This document shows positions 1-41,202 of a stretch of 64,000 bases of DNA, piece after piece. Below the pieces are notes generated by a model. That model was not told where the DNA came from. It made no database searches and saw nothing but the letters and a program-made list of their open reading frames with translations. A program made the position numbers and the translations under genes. Each line of letters begins with the position of its first letter. Position 1 is the stretch's first letter. Origin of the DNA: Eledone cirrhosa (taxonomy: Eukaryota); assembly GCA_964016885.1 (NCBI GenBank), contig OZ024740.1, forward strand, positions 228,160,001 to 228,224,000, written 5' to 3'.

Positions 1-1380
1 TAGTAGTAATGGTTGTGATGGAAATGATGGTGTTGGTGGTTGTAGTGTAGGTGGTAGTAGTAATGGTTGGATGGAAATGATGGTGTTGGTGGTTGTAGTG
101 TAGGTGGTAGTAGTAATGGTTGTGATGGAAATGATGGTGTTGGTGGTTGTAGTGTAGGTGATAGTAGTAATGGTTGTGATGGAAATGATGGTGTTGGTGG
201 TTGTAGTGTAGGTGGTAGTAGTAATGGTTGTGATGGAAATGATGGTGTTGGTAGTTGTAGTGTAGGTGGTAGTAGTAATGGTTGTGATGGAAATGATGGT
301 GTTGGTAGTTGTAGTGTAGGTGGTAGTAGTAATGGTTGTGATGGAAATGATGGTGTTGGTAGTTGTAGTGTAGCTGGTAGTAGTAATGGTTGTGATGGAA
401 ACGATGGTGTTGGTAGTTGTAGTGTAGGTGATAGTAGTAATGGTTGTGATGGAAATGATGGTGTTGGTAGTTGTAGTGTAGGTGGTAGTAGTAATGGTTG
501 TGATGGAAATGATGGTGTTGGTAGTTGTAGTGTAGGTGGTAGTAGTAATGGTTGTGATGGAAATGATGGTGTTGGTAGTTGTAGTGTAGGCGGTAGTAGT
601 AATGGTTGTGATGGAAATGATGGTGTTGGTAGTTGTAGTGTAGGTGGTAGTAGTAATGATTGTGATGGAAATGATGGTGTTGGTAGTTGTAGTGTAGGTG
701 GTAGTAGTAATGGTTGTGATGGAAATGATGGTGTTGGTAGTTGTAGTGTAGGTGGTAGTAGTAATGGTTGTGATGGAAATGATGGTGTTGGTAGTTGTAG
801 TGTAGGTGGTAGTAGTAATGGTTGTCATGGAAACGATGGTGTTGGTGGTTGTAGTGTAGGTGGTAGTAGTAATGGTTGTGATGGAAATGATGGTGTTGGT
901 GGTTGTAGTGTAGGTGGTAGTAGTAATGGTTGCGATGGAAATGATGATGTTGGTGGTTGTAGTGTAGGTGGTAGTAGTAATGGTTGTGATGGAAATGATG
1001 GTGTTGGTAGTTGTAGTGTAGCTGGTAGTAGTAATGGTTGTGATGGAAACGATGGTGTTGGTGGTTGTAGTGTAGGTGGTAGTAGTAATGATTGTGATGG
1101 AAATGATGGTGTTGGTGGTTGTAGTGTAGGTGGTAGTAGTAATGATTGTGATGGAAATGATGGTGTTGGTGGTTGTAGTGTAGGTGGTAGTAGTAATGGT
1201 TGTGATGGAAATGATGGTGTTGGTAGTTGTAGTGTAGGTGGTAGTAGTAATGGTTGTGATGGAAATGATGGTGTTGGTAGTTGTAGTGTAGGTGGTAGTA
1301 GTAATGGTTGTGATGGAAATGATGGTGTTGGTAGTTGTAGTGTAGGTGGTAGTAGTAATGGTTGTGATGGAAATGATGGT
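1..1380. repeat. 54-bp GT-rich minisatellite, about 25 copies, runs off the window start
   Basis: Unit TAGTAGTAATGGTTGTGATGGAAATGATGGTGTTGGT(G/A)GTTGTAGTGTAGGTGG; the 18-aa period of ORF 67..1386 reflects the unit length. Confidence 0.95.
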
Positions 1381-1599
1381 GGGTGATATGGTAGCAGTAG
1401 ATATAGTGGTAGGTATTGTGGGTGGTATCTGTGGTAGTAGTGGTGGTTGTAGTGTTGAAGGGGTATCACCACTGATACTACATGATGATGATGATGATGA
1501 TGATGAGGAAGAGGAAGAGGAGTTAGTGGAAGAGGGAGAATGGGAAAAGTAGGAGGGGATTAATAATAACAATAATAATAAACAATCAATAACAAAAAA

Positions 1600-1631
1600 T
1601 AGTAGTAGTCGTAGCAGCAGCAGCAGCAGTG

Positions 1632-1697
<66 letters not shown>

Positions 1698-1838
1698 TAA
1701 TGATGATGAAGATGGTGACGGTGACGGCGAAGAAGAAGAAGAAGAAGAAGAAGAAGAAGAAGAAGAAGAAGAAGAAGAAGAAGAAGAAGAAGAAGAAGAA
1801 GAAGAAGAAGAAGAAGAAGAAGAAGAAGAAGAAGAAGA
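1600..1838. repeat. (GTA)n then (GAA)n microsatellites
   Basis: Direct reading. Confidence 0.95.
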
Positions 1839-2085
1839 AAATGATTACGAAATCGAACTAACAACAGATGTTAGACTACTGACAGTGAATGGATGATGAA
1901 ATCATTGATTGATTATATTTTCTAAACCGAGCCGTGCTACCTTATTTATTTATTATTTATATTATTTATATAATTCATTCTCTTATTCTTTCAGCCATTC
2001 TTTTAATCATTCATTTTTCATTTATTCTTCCATTCTTTTATTCATTCGTTCAACTATTCATTTGTTCGTTATTATTTCGTTCTTT

Positions 2086-2270
2086 CGGTGGATTGGCAGT
2101 ATCGGTAGAGAGTCGGACGCCATGCTTTCCAGCATAGTTACGTCCCTTTACGATCTGAGTTCAAATCCCGCCGAGGTTGACTTTGCCTTTCATCCTTACA
2201 GGGTCGATAAAATAAAGTACCAGTAATACACTCGGTAATTGCTGGCCTTGTGCCTAAAAGTAGAAACAAT
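2086..2270 (+). mobile_element. tRNA-derived SINE, family 1, full length
   Basis: A-box-like TGGCAGTATCGGTAGAG, B-box GAGTTCAAATCCC, core GCCTTTCATCCTTACRGGGTCGATAAAATAAAGTACCAG, tail TTGCTGGCCTTGTGCCTAAA; many near-identical copies in the window. Confidence 0.9.
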
Positions 2271-2699
2271 TATTTCGTTCTTTCACTATTTGTTCATTCT
2301 TTCAGTCCCTCTTTCATTCAATATTCCATTCATTCGTCTATTCATTCATTCAGTTATTCTAACAGTCAAGTCATTCACAACTTCATTAATTCATCTCGAT
2401 TCAGCTCTCCAGCTGGGAACGATGGACGTTTATATAATGCAGTATAACTAAACTACGTCTCTCTCACTGACGTTTGTCACTATGAATAATAGTAAAACTT
2501 CTATTCTAAGATTGGCTATAGTTAGTTTATCAGATAGAATATAACCAATGACTCGTTAAGCCATTGAAATAAAATTAAAAAGAAGAAAAATCAAATTTAT
2601 TGCACACACCTCTGCAAATTTAGTTGACTTCTTATGAGGTTGTATCTTATAAGACAAGAAAGGGGACCTTCTGAAAGAAGTACGAATTTCGCTGGCACC

Positions 2700-3305
2700 A
2701 CCATCCTCATTGCAACCATTGTCGATCATTCCTGACAAAGTCTGTCCACAATCACGATTTTCCATTGCTCCTGTTAACTGGTCCTTACTGAGGTTTGTAT
2801 CAACCGGGAATTGATCGATGACGGTTCGAGCAAGTCTTCCTCTACTGCGTCTCCTATGAGTTGGTTCCCACAACATCACATATATCATCCTCATTGCGAC
2901 CACAGTTGGACATTCCTGACAAAGTCTGTCCCCAATTCACGATTTTCCATTGCTCCTGGTTGAGGTTTGTATCATCTGAGAGTTGGTCGATGAATGTTTG
3001 AGCAAGTCTTCCTGTATTGCATCTCCTGTAAGTGGGTTCCCACAACATCACATATACATATCATCATCATTGCGATTACACTTAAACATTCCTGACAGTC
3101 TCTTCACAATTCACAATTTTCCATTGCTCCTGGCAACTGCCCCCTACTGAGGTTTGTATTATCTGAGAGTTGATTGATGATTGTTCTAGCAGGTCTTCCT
3201 CTTCTGTGTCTCCCATTAGTTGGTTCCCACAATAGTAACTTGTGTATAACTTCTTGCTTACTCCTCCAACAATGTCCTGCAAATTGTAACCATCTTTAAG
3301 CAATT
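2700..3305 (-). mobile_element. Decayed RTE-clade LINE 3' end with the last ~180 bp present as three diverged tandem copies
   Basis: Minus-strand translations RWLQFAGHCWRSKQEVIHKLLLWEP and LWEPTHRRRSRGRLARTVIDQ...AMENR match the RTE ORF C-terminal pattern; units at about 2702, 2886 and 3061. Confidence 0.75.
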
Positions 3306-3845
3306 ATAGTTATGTTGGGCAAATTATCGTATCAACTTTCATTTCTAATACGTTGGCACCAGTTAATATTTTGTACAACCCTAAGCAAAATTCAAATTAC
3401 AGTATATTTTAGATAATTTTATTTTTTTTATCCATCTTTTCAACTAATTTTAACTCGTAGAAGCAAACAAACAAATAACCCATGTATATTTCTTTATTTA
3501 CATTTGTAATTATATTTTGTAAAATTACTGGCGTTTAGAGAGAAACTATTTTTTCACAATGTGGCCGCATTGGATGTTAGATGAAATCTATGCGACCCTT
3601 TCAGCATAAAAAAACGTTTCTCTATGCTCGTCCTATTATAAAAGGCAACGTGAAATGAAGCGTCTAGCTCAAGAACACAACACATCCTTTGAAGTCGTTG
3701 AATAAAGTACCATTCCAGTACTGGGGTCGATTCTTCCTCTATATCTCTTTCTCTATTTCAACCACCACCGATGTCAACTTTGACTTTCATCCTTCAAGGT
3801 CGATACACAAAGTACCAGGGTTTAAAGGTCTAAAGTCTGTCTTAA

Positions 3846-4114
3846 GCCAGAAGGCTCGTCAGGCCGGTGCTTATCACGGTTTCGTGGCGTGAAGCGACTG
3901 AGAGTACAAGACTCCTCCCTGGACAGGACGCCAGTTCATCGCAGCTCATCGCAGGGTTAAAGCCTCAGTACTGGTACTCATTTTCAGTTGATTGTACTAG
4001 AGCAACGTGAAATGAAGTGTTTTCCTCAAGAACACAACATGCAACTCAACCCAGGAATCGAACCCTCGACATGATGATTGTAAGTCCAACACGTTACCAC
4101 GAGGCCACGCGCCT
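3846..4114 (-). mobile_element. tRNA-derived SINE, family 2 (CORE-SINE-like)
   Basis: Minus strand GGCGCGTGGCCTCGTGGTAA (A box), GGGTTCGATTCC (B box), TGTGTTCTTGAGGAAAACACTT CORE-like segment, CCTGCGATG...GTCCAGGGAG tail. Confidence 0.7.
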
Positions 4115-4337
4115 CCACCGGTTAAGGTGCCAGACAGGATGTTTTGCAGTATTTGTTCCGAATGTGTGTGTTCTGAGTTCACAATCTCACCTCTTCTCAC
4201 CAGAAAACCGATGACACTTCTGCTAGGAATTGCCACTGACACACAGTATCAGCAATAGAAAAACCAATAGAAATATAATAGCCTTGCTCCGACCTGACCA
4301 TCCACTTCTTTCCGTTCCTCATTAATTATTTAGTTAC

Positions 4338-7886: not shown

Positions 7887-8293
7887 AAACAATAATATTT
7901 TCTAATTTAGACACAAAGCCAACAATTCAGTGGAGGGGAAATACGATTAACTTGACCTCAGAAAAATGAAAGGCAAAGTTGACTTTGTGGGATTTCAACT
8001 CAGACTGTAAAGAATTTTAATTAAATGTCGCTAAGCAGCTTGTCCGATGCTCTACCGATTCTACCAACTCACAATAATAATAATAAAAGGAGGAATTAGG
8101 ATGCAACATGTTTACAATTGGCAGCCATCTTGAATCTTAGTTGTTGTTAATTGTATTACATTAAATTCTATTAATCTCACACTTACATACGTGCATGCAT
8201 ACATACATATATACATACATACATTCGTACATACATACATACATATATACATACATACATTCGTACATACATACGTGCATGCATACATACATA

Positions 8294-10163
8294 GGCTTTA
8301 CAGTTAGCCAAAGTCCCACAACCATTGGTAGCTGCTGTTGAACGCCTGACCAAGAACTGGTACACCAATTTGATCCTTAGAGGTGAGAAGGAGCAGGTTA
8401 AGACTGATAAGATACATTACCAGAAGGGCATCTTTCAGGGTGATAGCTTGTCAGTGCTACTCTTCGTTCTCTCACTGAATCCACTATCTTACCTACTCAG
8501 GAAACAAGGTGGACAAAGAAGTGGGCCCAGAAGTATCTCCCATCTTTTCTTTGTTGATGACCTGAAGTTGTATGGGCCAAATATCAATGACATCAAGAAA
8601 CAATTGGACCTCATTACACAATTTTCAACCGACATCAAAATGAAATTTGGTGAGTCCAAGTGTGCATATTTGGCAGTAAAACGTGGAAGAGCTGTGCCCT
8701 CTTCTAGAAATCTAGAGATGAACGGCCTGACAATACAACCTCTGCAGTCAGGTGACAACTACAGATATCTTGGACAGGATGAGAATGTCAGATATAATGG
8801 ATCCATAAATAAGGAGAGAACCAGAATTGAATACCTCAGAAGAGTAAAGAAAATATGGTCATCAGAACTGTCAGCATACAACAAATACATTGCCCACAAT
8901 ACTTATGCTGTGCCAATTCTAACGCCAACATTTGGCCTACTGAACTGGTCATTGCAAGAACTAAGTGAGATGGATGTTAGAACTCGCAAACTTCTCAGTG
9001 TTACTGGGAACTTTAACATCAATGGTGATGTGGATAGGCTATACTTCTCACGCAAGGAAGGTGGCCGGGGTCTAAAATCAATATTAACAACATATGAGAC
9101 CCGGATAGTAACACTGAAGCAACACCTTCAACAGAGGAAAAAGGTTGGCAACCATCTTGCCCAGGTTTATGACCATGAAAAAAGAAATATCATTAGAATA
9201 GCGACTGATCTGGAGGAGAGATATGGAATAAAGCCTGATATAAATCTCTCACCCAGAGAAATCGGAAGATCCTATTCAATGTTCAAACAAGATGAAAAAA
9301 TTGACCAATTTACAGAAAAAGTTGTGCATGGATACTTGAGGCGTAAAACACAGACCATAGAGGGGATAAACCACTCAAAAAGCCTGGCATGGAGTTCCGA
9401 CAAGTTTATGACATCACACCTTGAGGGATATCTCTATGCAATACAGGAACAAGAACTCCCTACCAAATATCTGCTGCACAAAAGAGGAGGGTCAGCAGCT
9501 GACAATAAATGTAGGCTATGTAAAACAAAGATCGAGGATGTAAGCCACATTGTTGCCAGCTGCGAAAGAATGTCATCTCGCTACTACCTCCCCATGAGAC
9601 ACGATGAGATAGCTAGAACCATCTGGAACGCACTTCGGAAAACAAAATTAACAACAAACGAGGAAGAATATATTGAGACAGATGGCACTAAGGAATACTG
9701 GTGGAACCTGAAAATAACAACTGCCACCAAATTAAAGCACAACCGGCCTGATATTGTAGTTTGGGACCACACATTGAAAACGTGTTCTGTTGTGGAGATC
9801 AGCTGCCCACTTGATGTAAACGTTGTCAGAAAAATACAGGAGAAGGAGGACATCTACGGACCATTGATGAGGAGCTTACAAATCCAGTATCCAAGATACA
9901 CCTTTAGCTTCATACCCATCATTATTGGTGCTACGGGTTATATACCAACCCGCTTGGACCAAAGTATGACTGAACTTGGATTTGCGGACAAAAAGCGCAG
10001 CTCCCTAATTCATAGTCTACAAATGGCTGCGATAGCTGGCACCTTCAAAATTTGCAAAACATTCTTGCGATTCAAGGGATGACAATTTCTTTTCTTTTAC
10101 AACCTTGCCACCAGGAAGGTAGCCGGTCAAAAAAATATACTCGAAATTAAGAGAAAGAGAAAA
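8294..10163 (+). mobile_element. R4/Dong-clade non-LTR retrotransposon, family A, 5'-truncated, inserted in (CATA)n
   Basis: RT plus RLE ORF, 81-bp 3' UTR ending GAGAAAGAGAAAA; compound CATA/ATTCGTAC microsatellite on both flanks; second copy at 33460..33985 defines the 3' end. Confidence 0.93.
8325..10082 (+). CDS. Reverse transcriptase (C-terminal part) + CCHC zinc knuckle + PD-(D/E)xK restriction-like endonuclease; N-terminally truncated, frame open from 8295
   Basis: Motifs KGIFQGDSLS, HLFFVDDLKLY, FGESKC, YRYLG, GGRGL, AIQEQ, CRLC-x8-H-x4-C, RHD, NRPDIVVWD, VVEISCPLD; no stops or frameshifts. Confidence 0.93.
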   Translation: MVAAVERLTKNWYTNLILRGEKEQVKTDKIHYQKGIFQGDSLSVLLFVLSLNPLSYLLRKQGGQRSGPRSISHLFFVDDLKLYGPNINDIKKQLDLITQFSTDIKMKFGESKCAYLAVKRGRAVPSSRNLEMNGLTIQPLQSGDNYRYLGQDENVRYNGSINKERTRIEYLRRVKKIWSSELSAYNKYIAHNTYAVPILTPTFGLLNWSLQELSEMDVRTRKLLSVTGNFNINGDVDRLYFSRKEGGRGLKSILTTYETRIVTLKQHLQQRKKVGNHLAQVYDHEKRNIIRIATDLEERYGIKPDINLSPREIGRSYSMFKQDEKIDQFTEKVVHGYLRRKTQTIEGINHSKSLAWSSDKFMTSHLEGYLYAIQEQELPTKYLLHKRGGSAADNKCRLCKTKIEDVSHIVASCERMSSRYYLPMRHDEIARTIWNALRKTKLTTNEEEYIETDGTKEYWWNLKITTATKLKHNRPDIVVWDHTLKTCSVVEISCPLDVNVVRKIQEKEDIYGPLMRSLQIQYPRYTFSFIPIIIGATGYIPTRLDQSMTELGFADKKRSSLIHSLQMAAIAGTFKICKTFLRFKG

Positions 10164-10580
10164 CATATATATACATACATACATTCGTACATACATACAT
10201 AGATACATACATACATACATATATACATACATACATTCGTACATACATACATACATTCGTACATACGTACATACATAGATGCATACGTACATATATACAT
10301 ACATATATACATACATACATACATAGATACATACATACATACATATATACATACATTCGTACATACATACATTTGTACATACATACATACATACATTCAT
10401 ACATACATGCATAGATACATAAATACATATATATACAGGCATACATTCGTACATACATTTATTCGTATATGCATATATTCGTACATACATACATATATAC
10501 ATATATATATACACCGATATAGATATGAGTGTGCGTATATGTGTGTGTATATGTGCGTGTGTATGAGTGTATGCGTGCAC
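10164..10580. repeat. Compound (CATA)n microsatellite
   Basis: Same ATTCGTAC variant units as 8184..8293. Confidence 0.9.
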
Positions 10581-30856: not shown

Positions 30857-31460
30857 CAGGTCACCAGTTGGTGCTACTGGTAACATGTATCCCAGTACAA
30901 CCTGCCCCATGGTCGGGTCGTTGGCGACTAAACTGGCAACCCCACCAAGGTTTCTTGGTGAGTAGGGTGACTTTGGACATCCTGCAGGACTAAAAACAAA
31001 ACCTGTCAAAGGGCAAAGGAGCTCTTAAGAGTCAATGGCCATCCAAAATCACCGGGAGAGATGACCCCTTAGCCTTTGTCAAGGCAGAATTCTAGGAGAA
31101 GGAAAACTTTGATATAACACCTGCAACCCTGATGGTATCCAATGATGTTGACTTGTTCTTCTTTTTGGTTAATATCATCTTGGTTAAGAGAGTGGGACTG
31201 GCTTTGTGCAGTGCCTTTGCTCACTATAAAAGCTTCACGGCACAGGCATTGCTTTATATCTGGAGATCTCTGCAGTTGTCGTCACATGGTACCATGGGCC
31301 CAGCACTATGTGTCAATAATTGTCACAAGTGTAGTTTTTGTACCAGAATTTTCAAGTCGCTGGCTGGACTAAAAAGTCACACTCGTTCAGCGCATCGGTA
31401 GGGGTTCTCCTACATGGATATAAAGTAGTGGCCGTACTCGAAAACGAGTTGGCAGCCAAC
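30857..31460 (+). mobile_element. Short non-autonomous RTE-derived retroelement (5' UTR-like part + 3' end), copy 1
   Basis: 16-bp TSD ATGTACACATGTATGT (30841..30856 and 31461..31476); AGGAGAAGGAAAACT motif; C2H2 finger remnant CSFCTRIFKSLAGLKSHTRSAH*; 3' hairpin ACTCG-AAAA-CGAGT. Confidence 0.7.
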
Positions 31461-31552: not shown

Positions 31553-31960
31553 CCGGGAGAGATGACCCCTTAGCCTTTGTCAAGGCAGAATTCTAGGAGA
31601 AGGAAAACTCTGATATAACACCTGCAACCCTGATGGTATCCAATGATGTTGACTTGTTCTTCTTTTTGGTTAATATCATCTTGATTAAGAGAGTGGGACT
31701 GGCTTTGTGCAGTGCCTTTGCTCACTATAAAAGCTTCACAGCACAGGCATTGCTTTATATCTGCAGATCTCTCTGCACTTGTCGTCACATGGCACCATGG
31801 GCGCACTATGTGTCAATAATTGTCACAAGTGTAGTGTTTGTACCAGAGTTTTCAAGTCGCTGGCTGGACTAAAAAGTCACACTCGTTCAGCACATTGGTA
31901 GGGGTTCTCCTACATGGATATAAAGTAGTGGCCTTATTCGAAAACGAGTTGGCAGCCACC
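31553..31960 (+). mobile_element. Same RTE-derived element, copy 2, 5'-truncated
   Basis: Highly similar to 31052..31460 with the same 3' end GGCAGCCA(A/C)C|ATGT; flanked by ATGTATGTATGT. Confidence 0.75.
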
Positions 31961-32063: not shown

Positions 32064-32455
32064 TTCTTCTGGTTTTATAATTTTATAAATTTTACCAATA
32101 GAGAGAGAGTCGATTTCTAACATAGATACAAGACTCTCTCATTGGAATTTACACACCATCAACTAGGTAGATATGTATGTATGCATGTCTGCATGCATGC
32201 ATGTGTGTGCAGGTATGGATGTTATTGTATGTGCAGATGTGGATGTCTTGGGTTGTATGTGTGCATGTGTATATCCTTTGTATCTGTACAAGTGTATATG
32301 CAGTTATTAGATGCATCATTTTTGGAATGATTTACATATTTTTACTGTTCCATTAATGGATTGTACTTGTAATTTCCTAACTAGTTGTGTTCTTTCTGTT
32401 CCTGTGAAGTCTAGCTTCTCAAGATATGTATTGAGGCATTATAATTATAACATTT
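32064..32455 (-). mobile_element. R4/Dong-clade family B, 3' fragment, copy B2
   Basis: Minus strand encodes CLNTYLEKLDF...QSINGTVKICKSFQ; 3' UTR shared with 32772..33385. Confidence 0.8.
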
Positions 32456-32771: not shown

Positions 32772-33385
32772 TTCATCTGGTTTTATAATTTTATAAATTT
32801 TTGCCAATAGAGAGAGACCCGGTTTTTAACATAAACATAAGACTCTCTCATTGGAATTCAAACATCAAGTAGGTAAATATGTAGCATGCCTGCATGTTTG
32901 TGTGTACATGTGTGTATGTGTATGTGTGTGTGTGTGTGTATGTATGTGCATGAATGCGCGCGCGCGTGCGCGCGTGTGTGTGTGTGAGTCTGTGTGTGTG
33001 TCTGTGAGTGTGTGTGCAGGTATGGAAGTTATTATCTGTGTGCAGGTATAGAGTGTGTGTGTGTGCAGTTATGGATGCTATGTATAGGTTTTGAGTTATA
33101 TATGCGCATGTGCATATGTTTTGTATCTGTACATGTGTACATGCAGTTATTGCATGCAGAATATTTGGAATGATTTACATATTTTTACTGTTCCATTAAT
33201 GGATTGTACTTGTAGTTTCCTAACTAGTTGTGTTCTTTCTGTTTCTGTGAAGCCCAGCTTCTCAAGAATTGTACGGAGGCAGTTACTAACATATCCCAGT
33301 GCCCCAATAATCACAGGTATAAATCTGAAAGTATAATCAGGGTGGAGTATCTACAGATTTCTCATTAGTTCTGCATATGTAATGT
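32772..33385 (-). mobile_element. R4/Dong-clade family B, 3' fragment, copy B1
   Basis: Minus strand TYAELMRNL*ILHPDYTFRFIPVIIGALGYVSNCLRTILEKLGFTETERTQLVRKLQVQSINGTVKICKSFQ aligns without gaps to the family A C-terminus IYGPLMRSLQIQYPRYTFSFIPIIIGATGY...GTFKICKTFL. Confidence 0.85.
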
Positions 33386-33459
33386 GTAATGTATGTATGT
33401 ATGTATGTATGTATGTATGTATGTATGTATGTATGTATGTATGTATGTATGTATGTATG

Positions 33460-33985
33460 TTTTCTCTTTCTCTTAATTTCGAGTATATTTTTTTGACCGG
33501 CCACCTTCCTGGTGGCAAGGTTGTAAAAGAAAAGAAATTGTCATCCCTTGAATCGCAAGAATGTTTTGCATATTTTGAAGGTGCCAGCTATCGCAGCCAT
33601 TTGTAGACTATGAATTAGGGAGCTGCGCTTTTTGTCCGCAAATCCAAGTTCGGTCATACTTTGGTCCAAGCGGGTTGGTATATAACCCGTAGCACCAATA
33701 ATGATGGGTATGAAGCTAAAGGTGTATCTTGGATACTGGATTTGTAAGCTCCTCATCAATGGTCCGTAGATGTCCTCCTTCTCCTGTATTTTTCTGACAA
33801 CGTTTACATCAAGTGGGCAGCTGATCTCCACAACAGAACACGTTTTCAATGTGTGGTCCCAAACTACAATATCAGGCCGGTTGTGCTTTAATTTGGTGGC
33901 AGTTTTTATTTTCAGGTTCCACCAGTATTCCTTAGTGCCATCTGTCTCAATATATTTTTCCTCGTTTGTTTTCAATTGTTTTCAA
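33460..33985 (-). mobile_element. R4/Dong-clade family A, heavily 5'-truncated copy (endonuclease domain + 3' UTR)
   Basis: ORF 33541..33975 nearly identical to the last ~140 aa of 8325..10082; about five substitutions by eye; (ATGT)n on both sides. Confidence 0.93.
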
Positions 33986-34330
33986 CATGTATGTATGTAT
34001 GTATGTATGTATGTATGTATGTATGTATGTATGTATGTATGTATGTATGTATGTATGTATGTATGTATGCATGTATGTATGTATGTATATGTATGTATTA
34101 TGAATGTATGTATACATATATATGCATGCATATATTTATGCATGTATTTATGCATGCATGTGCATGTATGTATGTATATACGATATGTATGTACGAATAT
34201 TTATGTACGAATGTATGTATATATGCATGTATGTATGCTTGTATGTACATGTATGTGCATATATTATGTATGTATATATGTATGTATGTATATATGTGTG
34301 TATGCATGCATGCATGTATGTATGTAAGTA

Positions 34331-34361
<31 letters not shown>

Positions 34362-34365
34362 ATGT

Positions 34366-34405
<40 letters not shown>

Positions 34406-34469
34406 ATTATATATGTGTGTATGAAGCTCATGTGGCCAACGAAGTAATCATTATCGGTTTAGATGTTGC

Positions 34470-39183: not shown

Positions 39184-41202
39184 TAGAGTGTGCCATAAAA
39201 AGCAAGGTCACAATACTAACGCTCCCTGTATATTTTCCCATTATAAATGCCCCCATTGGTAACATAAAAAATATTTCGTATAAAATAAATTATTTTGAGC
39301 TTTGCCTATATCATGGTGATTATAGTGGAAAGTGTGATTATGTTGCATGAAATCATGAAAATGTGAAACCAAATATGACCATACAATAATTGTTTATTCT
39401 ATTAATCCATTATATTTAGTAAACCAGCTTTGAATATAAAGGTGTACAAGGAAGAAACAAGTTCAGTTAAGTTAACTCCAGCTATATTTTTTTCAGAGTT
39501 TCTTTTTTGAAATCCGGGACCTTGCGACGATGAGCTTCGACTACTTGAAGAACACACTGCTTCTCCTCCTCATTCTTGGTGATGGCAACAAAATCAGTTA
39601 TCAACTTGACTGCTCTCTCCGCCAGATCGTTGACTACCTTGATATTGTGAACAACAGCACAGGCATTTTGATATGACGTTTGTGATGACCAAGTTGTAGG
39701 CGACAGCTCAAGCCAAGTTTCGTCGAGACCAAGGAGATCGAACAGAAGCCTTGATTTCTTCCCAACTAGATGAGGCAGCTTCATGGACGACTTCAACTCT
39801 GGAAATACTGGAGCACCACAGTCGAGAGGCCCAGACGTTTTCGTTTTGACAAGACGTTTGGCTATTTGTTTCTTCTCGGACTCTTGGACCCGACTTGAAA
39901 ACAGCGCTAGCTAGCGGAATGGCTTCCTCCGTCAGGTACCTAAGATGCCTGCTCAGAGCAGTAGTGGCTGCTTGCGTGAGATCTCTGTCAACCTTACTGT
40001 ACTGTGTCAACTCCACGTAGAATTGAAGGTCATTGGATGGTGCATCAGCACACTTGACTGCTGTCAGCCAGTATCGCTCGTAGAACAGAGCATTGAACAT
40101 ACAGATCCGGCGCAACTTTTCCATTTTAGCTTGATCGTAATTGAGTCGCTCACCAAATGCATACATCTTTGCACTATAGATGATTGTAGACATCCACCCA
40201 GCGTTATGATGTGCACCAGGCAGCATCCAATGAATTCCACGAGGAGGGGCGACACTAAGCAAGATAAACACCAACTCGGCACAATCTCGGTAGTCGTCCC
40301 GTGGAAGTGAACTCATTTCCCCATCGTCGGATGTCAGCAAATCTTGGAGGAACTTGATGTTCTCAGAACACAGACGCTTGAGTCTCCGGTTGACTGTTCA
40401 ATGTTTTAAAGTTGGTCTTGTCCGTGAGTGACACCCAATCTTTTTTTAACTCCTTGAACTCTGGGGTGTCTGGACTGGACATTGCTCCGAATAGTTGTTG
40501 CCACACTGCACACAAGATACGCTCCATGACATGGTACCGACAAGCAAAATAAAACACCTTTTTGTTGAGCATCTCTTTTAGTTTCACGCAGGCACCATTT
40601 TTCCATCCAGAATTCGAAGCAGTTGTGTCGAAGACCAAGCCCACCACAGACCCACCAACATTCCAATCTTTAACAAGATCAAATGATGCTTTGGCTTGGG
40701 TGGTTCCAGTGCCATCGGAACACCGAGGAGTTTACCTTCTCTGAAGTCCGGAGTTCCAGCAACTAGCACACCTAGCCTCTCGTGGTCACCAGGAATTATT
40801 TTGCCATCCCAATGCAAGGTAACAAAGTCTGGTACAGCAAATTGTTCCTTTATGTGTTCAGCCCCCACAGTTCTGATCTTTTCGTGTTTCTAGGACCATC
40901 TTTCAGGTAGAAGAAATATCTTAGAACATCCCACTTTGTTGGTATTTTGTTTAGTGAAAAGGATGTAACATATTGTCCCAGGAGCCATATTTCTCGATCA
41001 TCACAACGGAGCGAGTAGCTACACTAGGCCCACTGGTTTCCGCCATTATTCTGCCAGTTTGCAACGATTAGGCAAAGCTTACATTATGTCTGAAATAATC
41101 AAAATTACATTATAAATTGATAATATACAAAATGGCATGAGAAAATGCATAGGGAGCTAAGAAAAAAACACTTTTGTGTAAAATGTGGGATTCTGGAACA
41201 CC

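What the first reader, a model, noticed from the sequence alone, without database searches (positions are those of the whole stretch)
8294..10163. Candidate (CATA)n-microsatellite-specific R4/Dong retrotransposon with intact RT and endonuclease
Seen: an uninterrupted ~596-codon RT-CCHC-RLE frame splits a compound CATA tract, with the same ATTCGTAC variant units on both flanks. Its 3' junction GAGAAAA|CATA is identical in the independent copy at 33460, which differs by only about five substitutions. Family B copies end GATGAA|CATA (32772) and GAAGAA|CATTCATA (32064). All four insertions share orientation and phase relative to CATA, and none lies in the abundant (TA)n, (CA)n or (GTA)n tracts. 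Known: RLE-encoding R4-clade elements are often site-specific (nematode R4 in large-subunit rDNA, Bombyx Dong in TAA repeats). Inference: a recently active lineage whose endonuclease recognises a tetranucleotide repeat, i.e. a possible new sequence-specific integration system. I do not know whether it is already catalogued.
Basis: partly seen in the sequence, partly recalled or inferred. Interest (0 to 1): 0.82.

Follow-up and report, generated by a model that had tools for sequence, protein, structure and literature searches.

The report
CATA-repeat-targeting Dong-like retrotransposon family
This is a front-truncated copy of a young jumping-gene family with about 4,500 copies, whose sampled members sit almost only inside CATA repeats while a related family in the same genome sits in TAA repeats, so it is likely a known kind of repeat-seeking element that has switched to a four-letter target.

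Summary
Real, and it holds genome-wide. Window 8294-10163 is a 5'-truncated copy of an R4-clade (Dong-like) LINE, here family A. Its 3' end occurs 4,516 times. In the first 64 listed copies, CATA repeats lie on the 5' side in 55 and on the 3' side in 58, against 1.3% background, although (TA)n tracts are about 19 times commoner. So CATA is a target, not just a tail. At least 12 full-length copies keep a 1,169-1,170-aa ORF (Myb-like domain, RT, CCHC, RLE), with median divergence 0.12%. Two corrections: the window copy's RT is not intact (574 residues missing, including a catalytic Asp), and only 3' junctions are phased. The same genome holds a TAA-flanked Dong family and a TA-dominated RTE-like family, so target follows lineage. 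Families A and B group with two CTTA-flanked elements, apart from TAA-flanked and 28S-inserted relatives. Dong-R4 LINEs are catalogued in octopus, and an R1-clade element already targets ACAY repeats. I found no report of CATA specificity in the R4 clade, but Repbase and two key papers could not be read. Verdict: new variant of a known kind; the recognition mechanism is inferred, not tested.

The parts
8294..10163 (+). 5'-truncated family A copy (last ~1.87 kb of a ~4.22-kb R4-clade LINE)
   Evidence: 98.6% identical, without gaps, to nt 2354-4224 of the intact copy in L272
8295..10082 (+). stop-free frame of 595 aa = residues 575-1169 of the full ORF; no start codon; RT N-terminal part missing
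8550..8561 (+). FVDD reverse-transcriptase motif
   Evidence: sequence; residue 660 of the full ORF
9510..9563 (+). CCHC zinc knuckle CX2CX8HX4C with Arg between the first two Cys
   Evidence: spacing as given in PMC5678591 passages
9597..9857 (+). restriction-like endonuclease core motifs RHD ... RPD ... E ... K..Y
   Evidence: aligned with TAA-, CTTA- and 28S-inserted relatives; residue positions
10083..10163 (+). 81-nt 3' UTR ending GAGAAAA
   Evidence: a 23-mer from its 3' end has 4,516 exact matches genome-wide
8184..8293 (+). upstream half of the compound (CATA)n target tract
10164..10513 (+). downstream half of the compound (CATA)n tract, with the same variant units
33461..33983 (-). 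second, shorter family A copy between CATA tracts (33389-33460 and 33987-34423)
32773..33380 (-). truncated family B copy (RLE end and 3' UTR; 49% protein identity to A) in CATA
32065..32438 (-). second truncated family B copy in CATA

Best explanation
The window holds a 5'-truncated copy of a young R4-clade LINE family whose sampled copies lie in (CATA)n tracts in one orientation with a fixed 3' junction, and the family likely inserts by target-primed reverse transcription after its own protein finds and nicks the repeat. Shown: full-length copies are ~4.22 kb with a ~630-nt 5' UTR and one 1,169-aa ORF (N-terminal three-helix domain, RT, CCHC knuckle, RLE motifs). Both flanks are CATA, the 3' junction is phased, and the 5' junctions of truncated copies are not. 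Inferred, by analogy with R2: the Myb-like domain would bind the repeat upstream of the site; the RLE would nick the TATG strand between G and T (TATG^TATG); the freed 3' end would prime cDNA synthesis from the RNA 3' end, probably helped by a few read-through CAUA bases; and the second strand would be joined through microhomology, which gives unphased 5' ends. That would explain the nested clusters.
For: 4,516 exact 3'-end matches, 2,292 of them followed exactly by WAA+CATACATA. First 64 listed copies: CATA 8-mer within 24 nt in 55 5' flanks and 58 3' flanks, against 1.26% of windows in 200 kb of arbitrary genome; TA in 1 and 3 of 64 against 8.3% background; 19 CATA versus 361 TA tracts of 12 nt or more in that background. 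Pooled 145 copies: 131 and 130. The two flanks of one copy share variant units more than shuffled pairs do (mean 7.08 vs 4.49 +/- 0.41, highest of 200 shuffles 5.51; 106 copies), as expected if an existing tract was split. Same-genome controls: family C (TAA clade) has TAA in 26 of 28 3' flanks and 11 of 15 5' flanks and CATA in none; an RTE-like family has TA in 19, TATG in 11 and CATA in 0 of 30 3' flanks; family B has CATA in 30 of 30 3' flanks. The N-terminal domain folds as three helices, and its best matches are mostly Myb/SANT/telobox domains. Its third helix differs by clade: A PKHLNEQ, B AKQLRQQ, CTTA elements LRDQ/LRDK, TAA elements mostly E-Q-R/K-L-A-D/G-Q. R2Bm uses Myb at -31 to -34 and RLE at -6 to +1 (PMC10499050, passages).
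Against: No biochemistry and no true empty site was seen, so the cut position and TSD length are inferred. The fold match is middling (best Z 5.9), and Foldseek gave nothing at E <= 0.001. 9 of 64 5' flanks and 6 of 64 3' flanks fail the CATA test; by eye three of the nine are imperfect CATA, one is (CAGA)n, one is (TATG)n of opposite polarity, and four are other sequence. About half of the 4,516 ends lack the exact WAA+CATACATA. The longer upstream tract expected from upstream binding is significant in the pooled set (median 34 vs 15 nt, p 2e-5) but not in the positional 64 (31 vs 18.5 nt, p 0.18). The pooled set is not random and includes tandem duplicates.
Confidence: 0.68

Rival explanations
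1. Specificity comes mainly from the RNA. Transcripts read through into the downstream tract and end in (CAUA)n, which would pair with the TATG strand at nicks made by a relaxed nuclease. The target would then be inherited through the tail rather than through the protein.
For: Avian R2 needs at least 4 nt of target-pairing 3' tail (PMC13580325, passage). All 10 full-length family C copies share AAC variant units just after the 3' end, which may be RNA-borne. 34 of 41 youngest A copies begin their 3' flank with an identical AAACATACATA.
Against: The first 24 nt of the 3' flank depart from pure CATA in 106 of 145 copies, and those variants match the same copy's 5' flank more than chance. So the flank mostly reflects the local tract. 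The Myb-like third helix changes with target clade. R2Bm does not need 3' homology to start TPRT.
Confidence: 0.2
2. Compatible with the best explanation: the element needs only a short CATA-like site and itself adds CATA units at the 5' junction by slippage or template jumping, so it would amplify its own target.
For: Several copies show a marked variant string on both sides with pure CATA between the upstream string and the element (L101: 18-nt string then 28 nt; L067; L080; L012). 5' pure runs exceed 3' runs in the pooled set, also in the 41 youngest copies (34 vs 17 nt, p 0.003). Only 1 of 19 background tracts exceeds 28 nt.
Against: Preference for long tracts, upstream binding, higher-order repeat units and later slippage predict the same pattern. 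The asymmetry is not significant in the positional sample. No orthologous empty site was found among held loci.
Confidence: 0.25
3. There is no targeting: CATA is only a 3' tail, or copies accumulate passively in repeat-rich regions.
For: CATA tracts are crowded with several element families, in the window (30.8-34.4 kb) and in the loci.
Against: CATA lies upstream of 5' ends truncated at dozens of different points. Orientation is fixed (CATA 55 vs TATG 2 of 64). Far commoner TA tracts are avoided. Families C and RTE-like in the same genome show other flanks.
Confidence: 0.04

Closest known systems
Dong (Bombyx mori), DongAg, DongBg: R4-clade, TAA-microsatellite-specific LINEs (PMC3812793, passage)
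   Same: Single-ORF RT-CCHC-RLE build; insertion into a microsatellite with repeat on both flanks. TAA-flanked relatives share the N-terminal three-helix domain and lie in the same supported group (100/100).
   Different: Target is CATA, not TAA (0 of 64 within 24 nt). Family A is in a separate clade (100/100) from the TAA-flanked clade (97/96), with about 30-40% RT identity. No named Dong sequence was available, so TAA-flanked elements stood in for it.
Dong-R4 LINEs of octopus (PMC13282606; PMC9115989; PMC8967140; passages; supplement search)
   Same: Probably the same or closely related families: O. vulgaris has 51 Dong-R4 consensus sequences, with 5 recently active families and 1,129 recently active insertions averaging ~4.2 kb. 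The nearest named protein is from Argonauta hians (63-66%).
   Different: The passages and the one supplement searched give no target site. Sequences could not be compared directly.
WaldoAg1, WaldoAg2, WaldoFs1 (ACAY microsatellite-specific; PMC3812793, passage)
   Same: Their target class includes (ACAT)n, which is the same repeat as (CATA)n.
   Different: APE-type elements (R1 clade, recalled and per the title of the cited paper) from insects; here an RLE element, so the shared target is convergent.
R4 of nematodes (large-subunit rDNA; recalled) and R2 (28S rDNA)
   Same: RLE-type LINE. R2 proteins are the best solved-structure matches. Two relatives inserted in LSU rRNA (L247, L249) root the comparison.
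   Different: Target is a dispersed microsatellite with thousands of copies, not rDNA. No N-terminal zinc finger is evident in the model or sequence.

Membership tests
R4 clade (RLE-type non-LTR retrotransposon) | single long ORF | tested here: met
   1,169-aa ORF in full-length copies
R4 clade (RLE-type non-LTR retrotransposon) | non-LTR RT followed by a CCHC knuckle CX2-3CX7-8HX4C | tested here: met
   spacing from PMC5678591
R4 clade (RLE-type non-LTR retrotransposon) | C-terminal PD-(D/E)xK restriction-like endonuclease and no N-terminal APE | tested here: met
   RHD, RPD, E, K..Y aligned with relatives; the N-terminus models as helical. The RLE itself was outside the folded 1,007 residues.
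R4 clade (RLE-type non-LTR retrotransposon) | RT phylogeny groups it with named R4, Dong and Rex6 references | tested here: inconclusive
   It groups 100/100 with TAA-flanked and LSU-rRNA-inserted elements against distant outgroups. The references are identified by target site only, not by name, and no R2 sequence was in the tree.
Dong in the narrow sense (TAA-specific) | insertion in (TAA)n | tested here: not met
   0 of 64 on either flank; family C of the same genome does meet it
Dong in the narrow sense (TAA-specific) | member of the TAA-flanked clade | tested here: not met
   separate clade, 100/100; sister relation to the TAA clade only 87/65
Dong in the narrow sense (TAA-specific) | 5' self-cleaving (HDV-like) ribozyme as in B. 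mori Dong (PMC3774820, supplementary legend) | tested here: inconclusive
   No Rfam ribozyme hit; 5' end folds no better than shuffles (z -0.75); my descriptor found none, but also none in TAA-clade elements, so it lacks a positive control
R4 proper / R2 (rDNA-specific) | insertion in large-subunit rDNA | tested here: not met
   flanks are CATA
Waldo (ACAY-specific) | APE endonuclease | tested here: not met
   RLE motifs present; helical N-terminus
any of the above | sequence-specific nicking and TPRT by the encoded protein | not testable with these tools
   needs biochemistry
any of the above | an existing Repbase or Dfam entry with this target | not testable with these tools
   those databases are not held

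The most novel reading that the evidence does not exclude
An undescribed R4 sublineage reads four-letter repeats (CATA, CTTA) through a retuned Myb-like helix. It has moved between those two targets more than once, since the two CATA families do not form one clade (AU p 0.007). It also writes extra CATA at its 5' junction, so an active retrotransposon would be building the microsatellite landscape that it and other elements colonise in octopod genomes.
Probability: 0.2. Interest if true: 0.78.

Novelty: new variant of a known kind. Interest (0 to 1): 0.55.

Why it matters
It supplies a natural experiment on how RLE retrotransposons change targets. One genome holds intact ORFs of a CATA-specific family (A, 1,169 aa) and a TAA-specific family (C, stop-free frame of 1,141 aa), with CTTA-flanked relatives elsewhere. 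Domain and tail swaps can therefore ask whether Myb, RLE or RNA tail sets the target, which the review read here calls not well understood for microsatellite-targeting elements (PMC3812793). It adds a candidate all-RNA insertion enzyme with a non-rDNA target. It may also explain why short-read insertion calling saw little Dong activity in O. bimaculoides (PMC9115989): insertions inside microsatellites map poorly. That last point is my inference.

Tried and rejected
Empty allele in sequencing runs: 24 runs were listed (no RNA holder listed, which says nothing on expression), but no reads or contigs were laid, so TSD length, pre-insertion tract length and polymorphism remain open. A search of held own-genome loci for adjacent flank pairs (98 of 145 copies queried) gave only element-to-element spacers and self matches, no true empty site. 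Ribozyme searches were inconclusive; the Rfam hits were microsatellite artefacts. Foldseek on the N-terminal domain gave nothing significant. Literature: searches found no report of a CATA-, ATAC-, TATG- or CTTA-specific R4/Dong element; the single hit was unrelated. Kojima and Fujiwara 2004 and Fell et al. 2025 are not held, so their tables and supplements could already list this target. Earlier scan findings: nothing relevant. The first tree run did not finish; the FastTree tree used 66 rows and the IQ-TREE tree a 32-row set chosen by me. 26 of 80 metagenome loci were left out of the trees as short or broken. The AU test group was named after seeing the tree. Rejected: 'intact RT' for the window copy; CATA as tail only; generic attraction of all elements to CATA.

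Full report
Observation. The stretch 8294-10163 (+) is the 3' part of a non-LTR retrotransposon. A stop-free frame of 595 codons runs 8295-10082, followed by an 81-nt 3' UTR ending GAGAAAA. Pfam finds RVT_1 and zf-RVT. It sits between compound CATA tracts at 8184-8293 and 10164-10513, both with TTCGTAC variants. A second copy at 33461-33983 (-) is 98.3% identical over 526 columns and has the same 3' junction. Two copies of a related family B lie at 32773-33380 and 32065-32438 (-), also ending on CATA. The RT is not intact: the frame starts at residue 575 of the full protein, after the DYQKAFD motif. And phase is fixed only at 3' junctions.

Host and family size. The assembly is 3.0 Gb, and the nearest named protein is from Argonauta hians at 63-66%, so the host is likely an octopod (inference). 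A 23-mer from the 3' end matches 4,516 times with 0 control matches; 2,292 continue exactly WAA+CATACATA. A 5'-terminal 21-mer matches 332 times. Of the 150 best RLE-region hits, 21 lie in open frames of 1,174 aa or more. I fetched them in 20 stretches; 12 distinct copies had both ends recognised by my patterns and an ATG-initiated ORF of 1,169-1,170 aa, with median pairwise divergence 0.12% (one locus was parsed twice). The family is therefore young and probably still able to move; current activity was not observed.

Target test. I took the first 64 listed matches on contig 1, a positional sample not chosen by flank, and mapped both junctions. A CATA-phase 8-mer lies within 24 nt upstream in 55 and downstream in 58. 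The same test is positive in 1.26% of windows in 20 arbitrary 10-kb stretches. TA repeats (8.3% of background windows; 361 tracts against 19 CATA tracts) occur in 1 and 3 of 64; CA and TAA in none. Truncation points are spread from nt 1 to 4189, so upstream CATA cannot be a 3' tail. Two pairs in the sample are segmental duplicates. 29 of 30 full-length 5' ends also follow CATA, and 110 read exactly ATACATAC|AATGGCG. In 145 pooled copies (not random), 131 and 130 have CATA runs at the two junctions, and variant units are shared between the flanks of one copy more than between shuffled pairs (7.08 vs 4.49 +/- 0.41). This fits insertion into an existing tract. Upstream pure runs are longer than downstream ones in the pooled set (34 vs 15 nt, p 2e-5) but not significantly in the 64 (31 vs 18.5 nt, p 0.18).

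Controls in the same genome. Family B (6,111 matches; about 54% RT identity to A) has CATA in 30 of 30 3' flanks and, by eye, in 14 of 20 resolved 5' junctions. Family C, found with a TAA-flanked relative as query, has 1,140-1,141-aa stop-free frames and TAA in 26 of 28 3' flanks and 11 of 15 5' flanks, CATA in none; 1 of 30 loci did not match the reference. An RTE-like family (label from a recalled C-terminal motif and the C2H2 finger reported for octopus RTE in PMC9115989; 28,026 matches) has TA in 19, TATG in 11 and CATA in 0 of 30 3' flanks. Target follows lineage, not a general pull of CATA tracts.

Relatives and tree. Of 80 metagenome loci, 22 have TAA-polarity repeats after the ORF, two have (CTTA)n (L191 on both sides, 51% RT identity; L192, 41%), and none CATA. 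L247 and L249 are inserted in LSU rRNA. In an IQ-TREE tree of 32 RT rows, A, B, the Argonauta protein, L191, L192 and five rows of unknown target form a clade (100/100). TAA-flanked elements with family C form another (97/96), and the rRNA-inserted elements a third; the link between the first two is weak (87/65) (FastTree on 66 rows agrees). B groups with the CTTA element L191 (97/92), and holding A, B and the Argonauta protein together is rejected (AU p 0.007, group named after seeing the tree). So the target has changed between CATA and CTTA more than once, in an unknown direction. The CTTA calls rest on two collapsed metagenome contigs.

Protein. A model of residues 1-1007 (mean pLDDT 84) matches R2 proteins best. 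The knuckle is CX2CX8HX4C, and RHD, RPD, E and K..Y are conserved with relatives. Residues 22-74 form three helices; modelled alone they match mostly Myb/SANT/telobox domains such as Zeste, TRF1 and NgTRF at Z 5-6, which is suggestive only (Foldseek negative). The third helix differs between CATA, CTTA and TAA lineages. No 5' ribozyme could be shown.

Mechanism. By analogy with R2Bm, where Myb binds upstream and RLE reads the cut site (PMC10499050, passages), I infer protein-guided nicking at TATG^TATG, TPRT from the RNA 3' end, and microhomology-based 5' joining (confidence 0.68). The cut phase is read from 3' junctions, including G|CTTA in L192. The main rival is specificity through a read-through RNA tail (0.2). 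A compatible addition is that the element lengthens the upstream tract as it inserts (0.25); copies such as L101 show a duplicated variant string separated from the element by pure CATA. No empty allele was examined, so this is open.

Known or new. TAA-specific Dong elements, including one from a snail, and ACAY-specific Waldo elements are in print (PMC3812793, passages). Most R4-clade elements are target-specific (PMC4640811, passages). Dong-R4 LINEs are catalogued as abundant and recently active in octopus, with no target given in the passages and the one supplement I searched (PMC13282606; PMC8967140; PMC9115989). Nine literature searches found no CATA- or CTTA-specific R4 element. I read passages only, no whole paper, and could not see Repbase, Kojima and Fujiwara 2004 or Fell et al. 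2025. It works like Dong and belongs to the wider R4 group, but fails the TAA test for Dong in the narrow sense.

Verdict. A real, well-supported target specificity; a new variant of a known kind; interest 0.55, with a fair chance that a curated database already notes it.

Noticed in passing
window 30857-31459 and 31553-31958 (+): Two short RTE-like copies with a C2H2 finger sit in the same tracts as families A and B but in the opposite polarity (3' end followed by ATGT). Genome-wide the family has 28,026 end matches and is flanked by TA or TATG, so CATA/TATG tracts collect at least three families.
   Followed up: partly
L381-L390 (own genome): A TAA-specific Dong family (C) with 1,140-1,141-aa stop-free frames; all 10 full-length copies share AAC variant units just after the 3' end, which may be an RNA-borne tail or part of the element.
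   Followed up: partly
L217, L228, L216, L238, L211 (metagenome loci): Relatives followed by (TTA)n of reversed polarity, (CT)n, (AAC)n or (AT)n: possible further target switches in the R4 group.
   Followed up: no
L075-L076 (G000:C2:248.457-248.467 Mb); L084-L085; L094; L276: Head-to-tail arrays of family A copies separated by short CATA spacers (period about 3.09 kb in the first); could be tandem duplication, repeated targeting or template jumping.
   Followed up: no
L065 1385-1688: The family A 5' UTR contains an imperfect direct repeat of about 140-150 nt (74% identical).
   Followed up: no
L069, L092, L093, L129: Short interspersed elements have inserted inside family A copies at sites without CATA, a further sign that CATA preference is not general.
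   Followed up: no
L292 (own genome): An additional Myb-like N-terminal domain of a different Dong-like family was hit by the profile; its target was not examined.
   Followed up: no
window 39708-40397 (-): A 229-aa non-repetitive open frame with only a weak Pfam hit (E 0.07); possibly a transposon remnant.
   Followed up: partly
window 1-1381, 12943-18842, 43123-43995, 53230-55030: Minisatellite arrays of 54, 28, 54 and about 56-58 bp.
   Followed up: no
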